64,000 nt of DNA, from contig MU058037.1 of the NCBI GenBank assembly GCA_013265495.1, forward strand, positions 1,427,498 through 1,491,497. The letters are read 5' to 3'. The stretch is from Vicugna vicugna (lineage: Eukaryota). Under the pieces are notes generated by a model that was given only the letters and a program-made list of their open reading frames with translations, ran no database searches and was not told the origin of the DNA. Below, in pieces: positions 12,775-54,138 of the stretch; position 1 is the stretch's first letter, and the number at the start of each line of letters is the position of its first letter. The position numbers and the translations under genes are program-made.

Positions 12775-13205
12775 GCTTGATGTGAAGAATTGGAGAGTAA
12801 GAGAATGGATTCAAAGGAAAATTGCTCACTAAGAAATTTTATATATTTGTATGAAGATTATGAACCTCCCGAAGGCCTGAGACTCTAGCAGAAACGTCCT
12901 GTTTGTGCATTTCCATCTCTTCCTTCTAGTTGGCTGCACTATTTACGTGCACTTATCTTCAGGTTTGGCAGCTTGCAGAGCAAAGCAGCTCAAGAATTCA
13001 CCACTTGGAGGGTGTGCTTTTGAGGAGGGGTATGATTTTATGGAGAAGGATATTGATTAACAATGATTTTGATGGAAAGTTCTCTAAGCTACTTCCCACA
13101 CTATTTTGGTCAAATATTTGGAATGTATTTTAGTTCTTCACCTTCTAAATTAATGTCAATAAACTTTTTATGGGGTCAAATAAATATTTGAGTAAATGAA
13201 AAATG
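12775..13205 (+). other. SMPX: SMPX terminal exon (entirely 3' UTR); 1-12774 is the preceding last intron
   Basis: Branch point CTAAC 12745-12749, pyrimidine tract and AG at 12773-12774. The sequence (TTGATGTGAAGAA...GCCTGAGACTCTAGCAGAAA...TATTTTGGTCAAATATTTGGAATG) closely matches the SMPX 3' UTR as I recall it. Synteny with KLHL34 and CNKSR2 fits. The 3' end is approximate. Confidence 0.88.
13158..13184 (+). terminator. SMPX: Tandem AATAAA poly(A) signals of SMPX
   Basis: AATAAA at 13158-13163 and 13179-13184 at the end of the terminal exon. Confidence 0.8.
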
Positions 13206-14994: not shown

Positions 14995-15954
14995 CTTGAA
15001 AAGCTCCCTTTGGAGGAGAAACCATTGGGAACAAGCCAGGCTCTCCAGAATCATTTCTACCACTCTCTTTTTATGATCTTTCCTTTTCGAGAGCACAGAT
15101 TGCAGAGTAATTAGCTTTGCTTCCAAGGTTACTTCCTGAGTAGCTGAATGACACAGGCGAAGTTTTAAAGTGAGGCCCAGGGCACCGGGGATGATAGTTA
15201 CCCAAATGAACCCCTCATTTTGAACTAGAGCAGTTAGAGGGTTAACATGATGCCTCCCGTTATAATTAGGTCCCTAGAAGGAGTGCACTGGCATGGCCGC
15301 ACCAGCCCGAGACACTCCCTCTCCTACCTTCTTGGGCTGACCTAGAACTAGGGTCCCCCCCTCGGAGATAAGGTGTGGAAAGGTTCAGGGGGCATGAAAA
15401 CAGAGCTCATTTGGATTCAAGGCCTACAGGTTGATCAATTAAAACTACTCCCTTTTGAAGGTACGTGGAATTATCCCATTGCTTTGCAATCTAGCTTGAA
15501 AGAGAAACTGTATTTAACTTGGTAATTGATACTCCCTTGGGATTTTAACCTGATGCTGAATATATGCATCAATGTGGTCCACAGCTAGTTCCTTGCCTCA
15601 CATCCCATTAATGAAATTTCTGTTCTTCTCCAAAGGAGATGATATATTGTCCTAACATTCAGACACGATCATGTATTCAGTCAACAAGCCAGGCACAGAG
15701 CTACCAATCAGGGTAACGCGACCTGCCAGCATGTTGCTGGGTGAAGAAAACCTTTAGAGCTCATACACTGAGTTCATTTTTTCTCCAAGCAAATGACCAA
15801 ACCGGCTCAGATCCCACACAGAAGGCAAATCATACTGTCAAAAAAATATATGTGCTGATTATAAAAAAGAGGATTCAGCTATAAAATAAGATTACAGCCT
15901 TAACACCACCATCATCTAAAGGTGTTCTTCAGAGAAAGAAAAACAACCTCAATT

Positions 15955-16407
15955 AAGCAATCATTTTCAGATTCTGGGATGCACTTGTCCTCATAGCCCT
16001 CAACCATATGCTTGTTTATTAAAGGAGAAAATAACTCCCATAACATTTGACTTAGGTGCAAAATAATTCAGTGCCACCCTCGACGAGGACAGACCGCACT
16101 ATCAGATAACAAGTCTCTTTTTTACGACTGGCTGTTGCCCTGGTTCAGTGAGGATATATTCAAGATGGGATTCCAGAGGGAAAGGGGATTCTCCCCTTGG
16201 GCTTCAGATGCCTGCCGATGAGCTGCAAGGCAAAAGCCGGTCTGTACTCTGAAGTCAAATATTCAAATCTGATCGAGTTGGGTGGAGCAACAGGGAGGGG
16301 AGGAGCAGGAAGGATTGACCCCAGTGTGCAGGCAATTCTTGACAAATAGAATGACGGCTCTAGGCTTCTCTGCACACTCTTCCTGCTCCTTAATATTGCT
16401 CACGAAT
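15955..16407 (-). pseudogene. Pseudo-exon with C-terminal conserved domain (PLPVAPPNSIRFEYLTSEYRPAFALQLIGRHLKPKGRIPFPSGIPS*IY…KETCYLIVRSVLVEGGTELFCT*VKC…)
   Basis: Acceptor CTGCACCTTAG; single frame for about 150 codons with scattered stops; local CpG retention. Confidence 0.55.
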
Positions 16408-17183
16408 CTAAGGTGCAGTAGACAAGACGGGGTCCTGGAGGAATTTCTGTTCAAGAAGCATTTTGGAATGCACCAGTGTTCAATCTGCCCACCCACACAA
16501 GCCACTCTGCCTTATAGCTAATGGTAGGCTTTGGGCCAAAAAACCCCCCAAAAAACAAAAAACGACCAAAACAAAAACAGGGAAGGTTTTGAGGTTTATT
16601 TATAGCTTTGTTTTGCTTTGTTTTATACTGTGTCTCCTGGCTCCAGCCACACACAGAAAGATTCTTGGGCCGAGGCAATTCTCACCCTCCCTCACCCACT
16701 TTCAGGGGGCTGGACACCCACCAGGGCATGGACATTTCTGCTCAGTATTGGAAATCAGACCGTTGCCTAGTGTTCTAAAATCATCTGGGTGAATCCAACT
16801 TTATTATAATTCCTTTAAAATGGCATGTTGCATTTGTTTAAATTTGCAGGCAAGGAAACAGGCACAGTTGTCTCTAGTGATTAATAATAATTGTGCATAA
16901 ACCAAGATTCCTTAAACACCTAAAAAAAAAACCCACCCCAAACTTATTATTTTCCAAATCTTGACGTCATTGCCAGGCATCATGGTTGTGATGATGACGG
17001 CTAAGGATAGGGAGGGTGGCAAACACACACACACACACAAACAGGGTGGGGAATTCGGAAGGAGGAAAGAGCCGGAGAGATGTCCTTTAAGGAGAGACCC
17101 ACTGGGTTCCAAACTCTGTAGTTAGATCCTCGTTGACTGTTGGGACTTCACCCCATAGACTCAACATCTAGACCCCACTTTCC

Positions 17184-29742: not shown

Positions 29743-31145
29743 AGATATCCCTCATTATCGGAACTCTCATTATCCATCTACCCACTAAAATGACTTGCAA
29801 AAAATGTTTATTCCAGGTTTATTGTCTGAATCGAAACCTGCTATTGCAAACCAGCAAACAGATGCCAGAAAGCCTGTTTAAGCTGCAAGCAAATCCAGGT
29901 GAGAGGATGTAGACAGTGTTGCAGTCCCATCTCAGCAGCTGCCTGATAACGGATACATGTTGAAATGTATGCCATTGCCATCCAGAAGATCAATGTTCCC
30001 AGTTGTTAAGTGAAAATGTCTTCTCAGATAGTAGTACTCTTTTGCTTCATAGTCATCATTTGGAGGAAAAAGAAGAGGATCCACGTGCTGAATTGTCAAA
30101 AGAAACGGTGGCTTACATGCGCAAAAGCATTGCTGCAGCCAAGTGAATGTGATCACGATATCAAAGGAAGCACCACACTCCAGAAATGCAGTGACAAGCC
30201 TTGTCTTATGCTATCTGGAGCTGTATAACCTTAAGCAAAGAGAATCTGAACAGATGTCCATTTTGAGAGCTTTCGTTTCATCTACACGTTTCATCTATAG
30301 CTCCGGACGATGGTTCAGAACTATAACCACTTCCAGGGTCTTGCATGCTAATCAGAGGCAGATGTCCCCCAGTTCTTTGTATCTGCGTTTGTAGGATGGC
30401 AGGCATCTACCGTTCCATTCTTTCACTCAATCTTAAACCCCAAATGTGACTAAAGCTTCTATCAACTTCCTCTGCTCAGGCAACTCTTCCTTGAGTCAAT
30501 AACCATGATTTGAAAATTGTCACATTATTTCATTTTATTTTTCTAAGCATAATTTTTTTTGAGTAAAGGTAGATTTATTTAGAAAGCATGATTTTAAGGA
30601 TCTTCAACGTATTATTTGTACTATAGTTATTTTTTACCTCAGTAGTACTCATTGAGTGTGGAAGAAAGATGAACTGCATCTACTTCATAGCATTCCTCCT
30701 CTCAATGTCGTCCTGGACCAGCTGTGTCAGGGTCACCAGGGAGCTTGTCAGATATGCTAATTATTGGGTCCCAACTCAGACGTACTAAACCTGAAACTCT
30801 GGGTCTCAGGATTATGTGCTTCAAAAAATTCCCCAGATAATTCTGCTGTGTGCCAAAGTTTGAAAAGCCCTGCTCCACTATATAATGGAGTATTGTACAC
30901 AAAAAATCAGGTAGTTGATGTTTTAAATGTTTTTACATTATGTAAAAATCCTTGGTGGATGTTTCTAGAGGGCTTTAAGAGTGTTTTAGTGATATTTGAG
31001 ATAATTGGTTGTGCATTTTGAATGGGTGGGGAATACATTATTTTTTGCCATCAAAAATAATAGAATATAAGCTTCCTTTATCTGAATATTTACTATCCCA
31101 CATGTTTTCAGGACTGGATTAGCTTCAGATAGCAAGGGAGGTCTG
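29743..31145 (+). mobile_element. Tigger (pogo-like) DNA transposon relic with MER5A inserted at about 30690-30872
   Basis: Imperfect TIRs CAGATATCCCTCATTATCGGAA / TTCAGATAGCAAGGGAGGTCTG; LLQPSECDHDIK resembles the pogo LIQP.DQG.I motif. Confidence 0.6.
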
Positions 31146-46762: not shown

Positions 46763-47517
46763 TCACTGGCTGTATGGGGAATCAAGGCAGGAAGGGAAAC
46801 AAAGGCTTAGGGACCGTGTTCCATGGTTGGGTGAGTGCAGAGTGGAAAGTATGGAACAACCCCAGGAAGCAAAACATGAGTGAGATGGGGCATCAACAGA
46901 AGCAGGAATTGAAACAAGGAGCTTCCTCAGAGCTACTGGGGGCATGCTGGCTTTTCCCACCACCCATGGGAAGGGGGCTGGCACCATTTTTACGGAACTA
47001 TTAAAGACAGCTGGAAGGTTTCGGGCCAGCCAGGTGGCTGAGGCAGGGGCTATGCTTGTTGTATGCCGAATGGTGGTGGGCGGCCCTCCTACAGTGGGCA
47101 GTCTGGAAACACTGCTCTTGCCACTGTCTTCATATTCTGGTGGCACTGTGCTCTTTGCAGCGTGACAGGGCAGGGCACATCTGACTGCTTTAGTGGGAAA
47201 TGTCTTCTGCTTGGGCTTCAAACTGTGAAACGTCCTGAGTGATGACATTAAATGTTACTCAGAGACCAGCCACTTGTTTAACGGCCGTTTCCTGCCCATG
47301 ACTATATAGGTAACTCTTAGCAGATACTGTTGCAGAATCTTTCTTAACAAATGGACAAATGCGACAAGATTTTTCAGGCTGTTAAGATCACTAATATCTT
47401 TAAGACAATTAAAAGCAGGTGAGAGCGAACTATCTTTCCTGTAGGTTTCCCAGTGCTGGCGAGATCTCGTGTGGAATCTTTCCGTTAGTCACTGACCACC
47501 ATCGTTAGAGAGAGATT
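46763..47517 (-). pseudogene. Pseudo-exon(s), cupredoxin-like region (ESLSNDGGQ*LTERFHTRSRQHWETYRKDSSL…)
   Basis: Acceptor CTATTTTCAG; one frame from 47518 to 46763 (252 codons) with only two internal stops (47491, 47257). Confidence 0.55.
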
Positions 47518-51796: not shown

Positions 51797-52186
51797 ATGG
51801 TGCGCCGCCACTGCGGCCCCTGGCGCGCTGTTGTGGGCTCCCCAAATTGGGCCGGGGAGGGGGTTTTGGGCAACGCGCTGGCAGCCTCGGCAGTCGCCGA
51901 AACCAAACTCTGCATCCCCCGGAAGACTCCAAACTCCTTGCCCTCCCCTACTAGGGGCTTCTGGAAACCGTTCCCCGACCGGATTTGCTCTGAGAAGGGC
52001 CCGAGGAGATCTGCGGACCTGGGCGAAGAAGCCCTGGGATTTAAGCTGAGCAGACAAAAATGGGCCCCTGCTAGGGGTTCGGCGGCTCGCGCGAGGGGCT
52101 CGGGGGCGCCGTGTCCTGGGATGCCTCCGGCCGCGCCTGACTGGACCCAGCCCCCGCCTGGCCGCTTCCCGCCCTGGGCATCATGA
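51797..52186 (+). other. Upstream ORF (129 aa) whose TGA overlaps the KLHL34 ATG (ATGA)
   Basis: ATG at 51797 in a strong context (GTGATGG); second in-frame ATG at 52121; stop TGA at 52184-52186. Confidence 0.45.
52060..52074 (+). other. Short uORF MGPC* in the KLHL34 frame
   Basis: AAAATGGGCCCCTGCTAG, strong Kozak (A at -3, G at +4), starts 123 nt before the main ATG. Confidence 0.5.
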
Positions 52187-54138
52187 GTTACTTCCTGTCT
52201 TACTGCAAAGCTCATGGCGGCGCGCTGCTTACCGGCTACCAGGCCCTGCGCGCCGAGGGCTTTCTGTGTGACGTGACCCTGGAGGCCGAGGGCAGCGAGT
52301 TTCCGGCGCACAGGTCGCTCCTCGCGTGTTCCAGCGACTACTTTAGGGCCTTGTTCAAGAGCCACACCAGGGAGTCCCGGGCGCGCGTGATCCACCTGCA
52401 TGTGCCCTCGGCGGCCGGCCTGCAGCGCTTGCTAGACTTCATCTACACCGCCTGGCTGCCGCTCTCCATGGACACCGTGGAGGACACGCTGGAGGCCGCC
52501 AGCTACCTGCAGGTCACTGAGGCCCTAGGGCTGTGCGGCCGCTACCTGGAGCGCCAGCTGGCCCCGGAGAACTGCTGCTTTGCCGCCAATATGGCGGCGC
52601 GCTTCGGCCTGGCGCACACGTTGGACGCGGCAGAACGCTGCATCGTGCGCCACCTGAGGGAGTTGCTGGCGCGCGGCGCGGGCCCTGCAGGGCTGCTGGA
52701 GCTCAATCCCGCGTCTCTCAGGGCCGTGCTGGGTGCCCCCGACGTGGCGCGGGTGCCTGAGGCCTGGCTGCTGGGCCTGGCGCTAGCCTGGTTGCGGCAG
52801 GAGCCCGAGGCCGAACGCCTGACCCACTGCGCCGCGCTGCTCGAGCGCGTCCGCTTCGGCCTGGTGCCCACCGACGTGCTTCGGCGGGTGTACTCGGGCT
52901 CCGGCCTCACGCTGCCCACCCGTGTCAAAGGCCTCATCATTCAGGCCCTCAACTACCACACGGCGCCCTCCCGCCAGCCGCTCATGCAGGGCGAGCAGAC
53001 CAGCGTCCGGAGCCCCCAAACCCGCATCTTGTTGGTTGGGGGGCGCAGGGGGCGGGAGGCGGTGACAGAGGAGGTCGTGGTCCCCCGGGAGGCAGTCAGG
53101 GGCAGGGGCGCTGCGGCGGCGCCCGAGGAAGAGGAGGAGGAGGAAGAGGAGCAGATGGAAGAGGAGGAGGAGGAGGAGGAGTGGGAGCTCACCCAGGACG
53201 TGGTAGCATTTGACGTGTACAACCACCGCTGGCGCAGCCTCACACGACTGCCCGTTCCGCTACTGGGGCACAGCGTGTGCGTCGCAGGCAACTTCCTGTT
53301 CGTCCTGGGCGGGGAGAGCCCGTCGGGCGACGCCTCCTCCCCGCTAACCGACAGCCCGCCGGCTGTCACAGCACAAGTGCACCGTTACGACCCGCGCTTC
53401 CACGCTTGGACAGCGGTGCCGGCTATGCGGGAAGCGCGGGCCCATTTCTGGTGCGGCGCCGTGGGCGAGGGGCTCCTGGCTGTCGGGGGCCTGGGTACGG
53501 GCGGCGAAGCGCTGGCTTCGGTGGAGATGTACGACCTGCGCCGGGACCGCTGGACGGCAGCCGGGGCACTGCCGCGGGCGCTGCACGGCCACGCGGGAGC
53601 CGTCGGGGATCGCGGCGTCGTGTACATCTCGGGGGGCAAGGCGGGGAGAGGCGAGGGCGGCGCGAGCAGCCTCCGAGACGTGTTCGCCCTGGGCCCCGGG
53701 GAGCAAGCGTGGAGCAAGAGGGCGCCCATGGGCACGGCCCGCTTCGGGCACCACATGGCGGCACTGCGCGGCGCGGTGTTCGCCTTTCTGGGGCGCTACG
53801 AGCCGTTCTCCGAGATCGAGCGCTACGATCCCGGCACCGACCAGTGGACTCGGCTGCGGCCGCTACCCTACGACCGCTTCTGCTACGGGCTGGCGGTGGT
53901 AGAGGAGACCGTACTGCTGCTGGGCGGCCTTAAGTGGCGGGACTCACGCCAGGTGCCTACCCGCAACGTGGTGGGCTATGACCTCGACCTGGACCGCTGG
54001 GAGGACATTGGCTGCGCGTTGCCCTGGGCCTGGAGCGGCCTGCAGTGCGCAGTGCTGCAGCTGGCCGAGGGTGGGGACGAGGAGAGGGAGGAAGAGCCTG
54101 GAGAGGCTCCAGATTTAGTGCTGGGCTTAATAGGTTAG
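52183..54138 (+). CDS. KLHL34: Kelch-like protein 34 (BTB-BACK-Kelch, Cul3 adaptor), single coding exon, 651 aa
   Basis: Intact ORF. BTB motif FLCDVTLEAEGSEFPAHRSLLACSSDYFRALF, BACK domain, and Kelch repeats (LFVLGG, LLAVGG, VYISGG, LLLGG with Y/W signatures). Poly-E insert in the first Kelch repeat. Located between SMPX and CNKSR2. Confidence 0.97.
   Translation: MSYFLSYCKAHGGALLTGYQALRAEGFLCDVTLEAEGSEFPAHRSLLACSSDYFRALFKSHTRESRARVIHLHVPSAAGLQRLLDFIYTAWLPLSMDTVEDTLEAASYLQVTEALGLCGRYLERQLAPENCCFAANMAARFGLAHTLDAAERCIVRHLRELLARGAGPAGLLELNPASLRAVLGAPDVARVPEAWLLGLALAWLRQEPEAERLTHCAALLERVRFGLVPTDVLRRVYSGSGLTLPTRVKGLIIQALNYHTAPSRQPLMQGEQTSVRSPQTRILLVGGRRGREAVTEEVVVPREAVRGRGAAAAPEEEEEEEEEQMEEEEEEEEWELTQDVVAFDVYNHRWRSLTRLPVPLLGHSVCVAGNFLFVLGGESPSGDASSPLTDSPPAVTAQVHRYDPRFHAWTAVPAMREARAHFWCGAVGEGLLAVGGLGTGGEALASVEMYDLRRDRWTAAGALPRALHGHAGAVGDRGVVYISGGKAGRGEGGASSLRDVFALGPGEQAWSKRAPMGTARFGHHMAALRGAVFAFLGRYEPFSEIERYDPGTDQWTRLRPLPYDRFCYGLAVVEETVLLLGGLKWRDSRQVPTRNVVGYDLDLDRWEDIGCALPWAWSGLQCAVLQLAEGGDEEREEEPGEAPDLVLGLIG
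53125..53181 (+). repeat. KLHL34: Coding (GAG/GAA)n repeat, E9-QM-E8 in KLHL34
   Basis: Read directly from sequence and translation. Confidence 0.95.

What the first reader, a model, noticed from the sequence alone, without database searches (positions are those of the whole stretch)
15955..16407. C-terminal conserved domain of the fossil gene, 2.7 kb past the SMPX poly(A) site
Seen: one frame gives PLPVAPPNSIRFEYLTSEYRPAFALQLIGRHLKPKGRIPFPSGIPS*IYPH*…KKETCYLIVRSVLVEGGTELFCT*VKC…TSIWLR. Recalled approximate family pattern: LIPV.P..L…EF..Y..G…LQ….H…….SSIP……NSF.Y….LFI.R..L.SVG…L.VHC. Spacing and position near the 3' end both fit. This is the strongest single piece of homology evidence.
Basis: partly seen in the sequence, partly recalled or inferred. 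Interest (0 to 1): 0.7.

Follow-up and report, generated by a model that had tools for sequence, protein, structure and literature searches.

The report
Unproven gene fossil, likely neutral DNA
This stretch of mammalian DNA translates into a stop-riddled peptide that only faintly resembles the tail domain of a family of giant cysteine-repeat membrane proteins, and it is likely ordinary non-coding sequence rather than the remnant of a lost gene.

Summary
The quoted translation is exact (minus strand, 16300-15998) but holds 5 stops, and its frame is no more open than its neighbours. The recalled family pattern is genuine: two giant Ephrin_rec_like-repeat/TM/coiled-coil proteins fetched from metagenomes carry such a C-terminal domain. 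That is what picking the best spot in 39 kb gives: 3-4 of 11 control strands do as well, and with both members 11 of 11 do better. The domain's two invariant cores (N-S-F, V-H..H) are missing. The only meaningful database hit is the orthologous DNA of another animal, which differs by 8 frame switches, 6 of them inside the motif. No upstream repeat or middle-domain exons stand above controls. Power is limited: no vertebrate family member could be fetched, and simulated old fossils score the same as the real interval. Verdict: likely neutral intergenic DNA (0.75); an old fossil is not excluded (0.17).

The parts
16079..16264 (-). best gapless match (62 codons, 19.9 bits) to the C-terminal domain of metagenome protein L115; weak, not significant after allowing for the choice of site
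16022..16505 (-). segment orthologous to P0002 (164-aa ORF from an unnamed Logan contig): 105 of 157 codons identical, 8 frame switches
12775..13200 (+). context: last, non-coding exon with two AATAAA signals, taken as SMPX (name recalled; end approximate)
52141..54138 (+). context: intact single-exon BTB-BACK-Kelch ORF, taken as KLHL34 (name recalled)

Best explanation
The interval is likely neutrally evolving, non-coding DNA downstream of the gene taken as SMPX, and its faint likeness to a real protein-family motif likely comes from choosing the best-looking spot among many frames. Shown: the frame is broken by stops at the background rate, has no codon periodicity, and differs from another animal's orthologous DNA by frequent 1-2 base indels. 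Inferred: it makes no protein, and it drifts by substitution and indel (about 83% base identity between the two animals, by simulation) with no memory of a reading frame.
For: 6 stops in 147 codons, no periodicity. Orthologous P0002 follows the finding's frame for only 78 of 157 codons, with 6 switches inside 16300-16043; the chance that all 6 lie on the other branch is 0.016-0.18 for branch shares of 0.5-0.25. 2 hits among 1.84 billion proteins, neither a family member; 0 of 220 and 0 of 331 word-sharing candidates scored. BLASTP to L115 E 0.10; hhalign to both members probability 0.2% and out of register. 3 of 11 and 4 of 11 control 39-kb strands reach the best single-member score; 11 of 11 beat the two-member score. 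The N-S-F and V-H..H columns invariant in A4 are not matched. No excess of repeat remnants upstream: 2 hits at 18 bits or more against 0-4 in 9 controls. The best spliced chain skips this interval and 4 of 61 block-shuffled controls reach it.
Against: With relaxed gaps it is in the window's top five in 5 of 9 settings and first on the minus strand in 1 of 18 settings. Simulated fossils at 30% identity to L115 have medians of 21.0 and 16.0 bits, so 19.9 is also typical of a true old fossil. The spliced chain score (71.1) beat all 10 first controls. All profiles come from distant, likely protist, proteins, and power at 0.4 substitutions per site is near nil.
Confidence: 0.75

Rival explanations
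1. The interval is a decayed exon of a giant Ephrin_rec_like-repeat/TM/coiled-coil gene that ran on the minus strand towards SMPX and died before the two animals split (a unitary pseudogene). It would make no protein now.
For: The recalled pattern is real. In-register gapless match to L115 over 62 codons, tile p 0.02-0.03, 0.008 with relaxed gaps; the score lies within the simulated range for old fossils; position at the 3' end of a 36-kb gap would fit a C-terminal exon (inference).
Against: Not significant once the choice of site is allowed for; weaker with two members; invariant cores absent; 6 frame switches inside the motif; a stop shared in position with the end of P0002 falls 7 codons after VKC, where L115 continues for over 30 conserved-domain residues; no upstream exons above controls, and a fossil with 13 exons at 0.25 substitutions per site would have scored 112-138 against 71.
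Confidence: 0.17
2. The interval is a constrained non-coding element or part of a read-through or antisense transcript behind the upstream gene, working as DNA or RNA, not protein.
For: It is unique sequence alignable to another animal over 484 bases. Nothing else.
Against: About 83% inferred base identity and one indel per 60 bases fit neutral drift (neutral rates recalled). No Rfam match in 15980-52000. No sign of a + strand retrocopy: no target-site duplication longer than 8 bases around the A-rich tract, best PDB hit of three + frames E 0.049.
Confidence: 0.08

Closest known systems
Giant Ephrin_rec_like (PF07699, formerly GCC2_GCC3) repeat / TM / coiled-coil proteins, here L115 (3856 aa) and L165 (2476 aa); that mouse Gm9195 belongs with them is recalled (PANTHER 'gene 9195-related'), not tested
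   Different: No N-S-F core, no V-H..H core, 5 stops, score not above site-corrected chance, no detectable repeat array or middle domain upstream.
Unitary pseudogenes / genes that lost coding potential before mammals (Hezroni et al. 2017, PMC5577775; abstract and outline seen, supplements searched by term)
   Same: The kind of object claimed: a dead gene at its original place, with little sequence likeness left.
   Different: Those cases rest on a live syntenic gene in another vertebrate; none is shown here. SMPX, KLHL34, CNKSR2, MBTPS2 and Gm9195 occur in 0 of its 4 supplementary files.

Membership tests
giant Ephrin_rec_like-repeat/TM/coiled-coil proteins (Gm9195-like, name recalled) | C-terminal domain aligns above chance | tested here: inconclusive
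   19.9 bits to L115, tile p 0.02-0.03, but 3-4 of 11 control strands reach the best score; two-member profile p 0.09-0.23, 11 of 11 better; only 2 distant members
giant Ephrin_rec_like-repeat/TM/coiled-coil proteins (Gm9195-like, name recalled) | invariant N-S-F and V-H..H cores of that domain | tested here: not met
   invariant in A4; the window reads ASRKKETCY and VKCYGS there, and the other two frames do not supply them
giant Ephrin_rec_like-repeat/TM/coiled-coil proteins (Gm9195-like, name recalled) | array of Cys repeats upstream | tested here: not met
   147-unit profile: 2 hits at 18 bits or more in 16.5-52 kb, controls 0-4; per-exon power 43% at d 0.25, 15% at d 0.4
giant Ephrin_rec_like-repeat/TM/coiled-coil proteins (Gm9195-like, name recalled) | conserved pre-TM middle domain upstream | tested here: inconclusive
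   9-member profile: nothing above reversed/complement controls; power for 150-base exons only 5-25% at d 0.25 and 0% at d 0.4
giant Ephrin_rec_like-repeat/TM/coiled-coil proteins (Gm9195-like, name recalled) | match to vertebrate members (Gm9195 itself) | not testable with these tools
   no vertebrate member was returned by any search; Pfam has no model for either domain
unitary pseudogene | disabled reading frame | tested here: met
   5 stops in the quoted span, but any non-coding frame meets this
unitary pseudogene | live orthologue at the syntenic place in another vertebrate | not testable with these tools
   no eukaryote genomes held; a chicken gene list shows SMPX;KLHL34 adjacent (PMC12767832) but is visibly incomplete
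unitary pseudogene | ancestral frame traceable across species | tested here: not met
   8 frame switches against P0002, 6 inside the motif; only one other species, so indels are not polarised

The most novel reading that the evidence does not exclude
The interval is the last recognisable exon of a lost, X-linked giant cysteine-repeat membrane protein gene of an ancient family shared with protists, killed before the placental lineages split and not yet catalogued as a gene loss.
Probability: 0.17. Interest if true: 0.45.

Novelty: not a real feature. Interest (0 to 1): 0.13.

Why it matters
If ordinary, it matters only as a calibration: a motif recalled correctly can still be matched by eye to non-coding DNA at a level that real family members do not confirm. 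If the fossil were real, it would add an uncatalogued ancient gene loss beside SMPX, in a barely studied family: Gm9195 and Gm32742 appear in 2 and 1 papers of the library, and Pfam has no model for the family's two conserved domains.

Tried and rejected
Pfam on six frames of the interval: 0 families on the 3 minus frames, one noise hit (E 0.094) on a plus frame. Pfam on the minus strand of 13.2-51 kb: 0 of 24 and 1 of 24 pieces (E 0.084); 1 of 18 short pieces (E 0.17). These scans also missed all 6 control pieces over LINE-1-like remnants (recognised by recall), so they have little power. P0003 (bacterial repeat protein, E 1.2e-4 in the library, 0.012 pairwise) rejected as noise. Metagenome scan with the interval: 0 of 359 stretches. 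A stretch at 23.1-24.1 kb (-) that I picked by eye, from recall, as the family's middle domain: 0 of 28 candidates, p 0.13-0.84 against five profiles, and pieces out of order; rejected, and itself an example of a chance match by eye. ORF 46766-47254 (-): no Atlas hit. CCDC162/DUF4549 as the family meant: rejected, the recalled pattern fits L115/L165 instead. More C-domain members in viral contigs: 0 of 17, 0 of 94, 0 of 103 stretches; fetched loci could not be extended. Atlas on the L115 domain: only unnamed clusters. PDB: 0 hits for L115, best E 0.096 for the finding's frame. AlphaFold on A4: mean pLDDT 38, so no fold search. Plain hmmsearch on whole frames: nothing. Sequencing runs: 3 rows on record as RNA hold parts of 15500-17000 (shares 0.41, 0.41, 0.11), but no reads could be laid, so this is no evidence of transcription. 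Papers: no locus paper found in searches (listings only, except passages of PMC12767832, PMC12528612 and 10.1101/650218, and abstract, outline and term searches of the supplements of PMC5577775; its supplement store did not answer, the mirror held 4 files). bioRxiv supplements were not seen.

Full report
Setting. The window is mammalian, likely camelid (a SINE at about 18.8-18.95 kb recognised by recall; earlier notes on this genome say the same). A BTB-BACK-Kelch ORF lies at 52141-54138 and a last exon with AATAAA at 13158 and 13179 starts at 12775. I take these as KLHL34 and SMPX by recall; the two are neighbours in a chicken gene list (PMC12767832, two table passages). No whole genome is held.

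Observation. The quoted peptide is exact: minus strand, 16300-15998, with stops at 16162, 16147, 16054, 16021 and 16018. Nothing marks this frame as coding: 6 stops in 147 codons against 9 and 3 in the other frames, a 79-codon open run matched by 66 of 4033 runs in the intergenic gap, and no 3-base periodicity (p 0.33; KLHL34 3e-11).

Database searches. phmmer over 1,835,955,588 proteins gave 2 hits at E 0.001 or less. P0003 is a bacterial repeat protein and noise. P0002 is an unnamed 164-aa ORF from Logan contigs. Word-based searches of 229-2000 aa and 1140-3628 aa proteins scored 0 of 220 and 0 of 331 candidates. Pfam gave nothing.

P0002 is the same DNA in another animal. A frameshift-aware alignment covers 16505-16022 with 105 of 157 codons identical and 8 frame switches (16453, 16331, 16290, 16277, 16248, 16168, 16115, 16081); only 78 codons are in the finding's frame. 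That identity corresponds to about 83% at base level under neutral change, so the source is likely another mammal (inference). Six switches fall inside the motif. For the window to have kept the ancestral frame throughout, all six must lie on the other branch: 0.016, 0.09 or 0.18 for branch shares of 0.5, 0.33 or 0.25. With one other species the indels cannot be polarised, and P0002's lack of stops says nothing, as it was called for being open.

Getting real family members. By recall, Gm9195 belongs to giant Ephrin_rec_like (PF07699) repeat proteins. A PF07699 search hit 14 of 401 alphaproteobacterial genomes; repeats from one locus were aligned and used to scan viral and metagenome contigs (9 and 79 loci). 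Of these 88 loci, 15 carry a shared pre-TM middle domain and 2 (L115, L165) a shared C-terminal domain. They are likely protist proteins (inference). No vertebrate member was obtained, and the link of these proteins to Gm9195 stays recalled.

Test of the interval. I scored codons against family profiles decayed by a neutral model, allowing frameshifts. With relaxed gaps it extends to 24.9-25.5 bits (7 of 869 tiles), using two frameshifts and a different register for the second half. Over 18 settings the site is never first in the window; it is in the top five in 5 of 9 relaxed settings and first on the minus strand once. An end-to-end version gives p 0.05 with 8 better minus-strand places. L165 alone aligns out of register. 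With both members p is 0.23 and 0.09, and 11 of 11 controls do better. BLASTP gives E 0.10, hhalign 0.2%. The columns invariant between L115 and L165, N-S-F and V-H..H, are not matched. The test cannot exclude a fossil: simulated fossils at 30% identity to L115 have medians of 21.0 (d 0.25) and 16.0 bits (d 0.4).

Rest of the supposed gene. A 147-unit repeat profile finds 2 hits at 18 bits or more on the minus strand of 16.5-52 kb, against 0-4 in 9 controls; per-exon power is 43% at d 0.25 and 15% at d 0.4. The middle-domain profile (9 of the 15 loci) peaks at 27.9 bits at 39.8 kb, above 8 Markov controls (19.5-23.5) but below or near the reversed and complement controls (30.8, 26.9) and inside a LINE-1-like remnant (recognised by recall). 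A spliced chain of all profiles scored 71.1, above all 10 first controls (maximum 68.1); but it runs through repeats and the CpG island, places the C-domain at 28.5-29 kb rather than here, and 4 of 61 block-shuffled controls reach it. Implanted fossils scored 112-138 at d 0.25 and 51-64 at d 0.4 (4 trials each). A moderately decayed multi-exon fossil is thus excluded; a very old or mostly deleted one is not.

How it works. Shown: broken frame, background stop density, frequent indels against another animal. Inferred: neutral intergenic DNA with no protein product (0.75). Rivals: an old unitary pseudogene exon (0.17); a non-coding functional element or transcript (0.08; no Rfam match; transcription untested).

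Comparison and novelty. It faintly looks like the C-terminal domain of the giant repeat family but fails the invariant-core test, and it lacks the defining evidence of a unitary pseudogene, a live syntenic orthologue. None of my paper searches or the term searches in the supplements of PMC5577775 describes a lost gene here. Two earlier notes on similar 'fossil gene' claims in camelid DNA also ended unproven; they are not evidence. Verdict: not a demonstrated feature; interest 0.13.

Noticed in passing
L115:10563-11027 (+), L165:8251-8622 (+): A conserved C-terminal domain of giant Cys-repeat/TM/coiled-coil proteins with no Pfam model and no PDB relative; Atlas features link it at 0.94-0.95 to small unnamed bacterial and phage proteins. 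Its H-x-x-x-H motif recalls a zincin site lacking the glutamate (recalled, untested).
   Followed up: partly
L115:6357-6656 (+) and 14 other metagenome loci: A well conserved pre-TM domain (Y-P..KD...N..FDY..F) shared by 15 of 88 fetched loci and absent from Pfam.
   Followed up: partly
window 46763-47254 (-): A 163-codon stop-free frame in GC-richer unique DNA upstream of the Kelch gene; no Atlas or meaningful Pfam hit.
   Followed up: partly
window 30050-30400 (+): Unique-looking stretch whose + frames read protein-like by eye, perhaps an old DNA-transposon remnant; no Pfam hit.
   Followed up: partly
window 16536-16630: An A-rich tract followed by a T-rich tract just beyond the end of the P0002 match; no target-site duplication over 8 bases, likely worn microsatellites.
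   Followed up: yes
L084 (G390:C51:56301-59396): An alphaproteobacterial ORF of about 1295 aa with some 18 eukaryote-like C..G.YC repeats.
   Followed up: no
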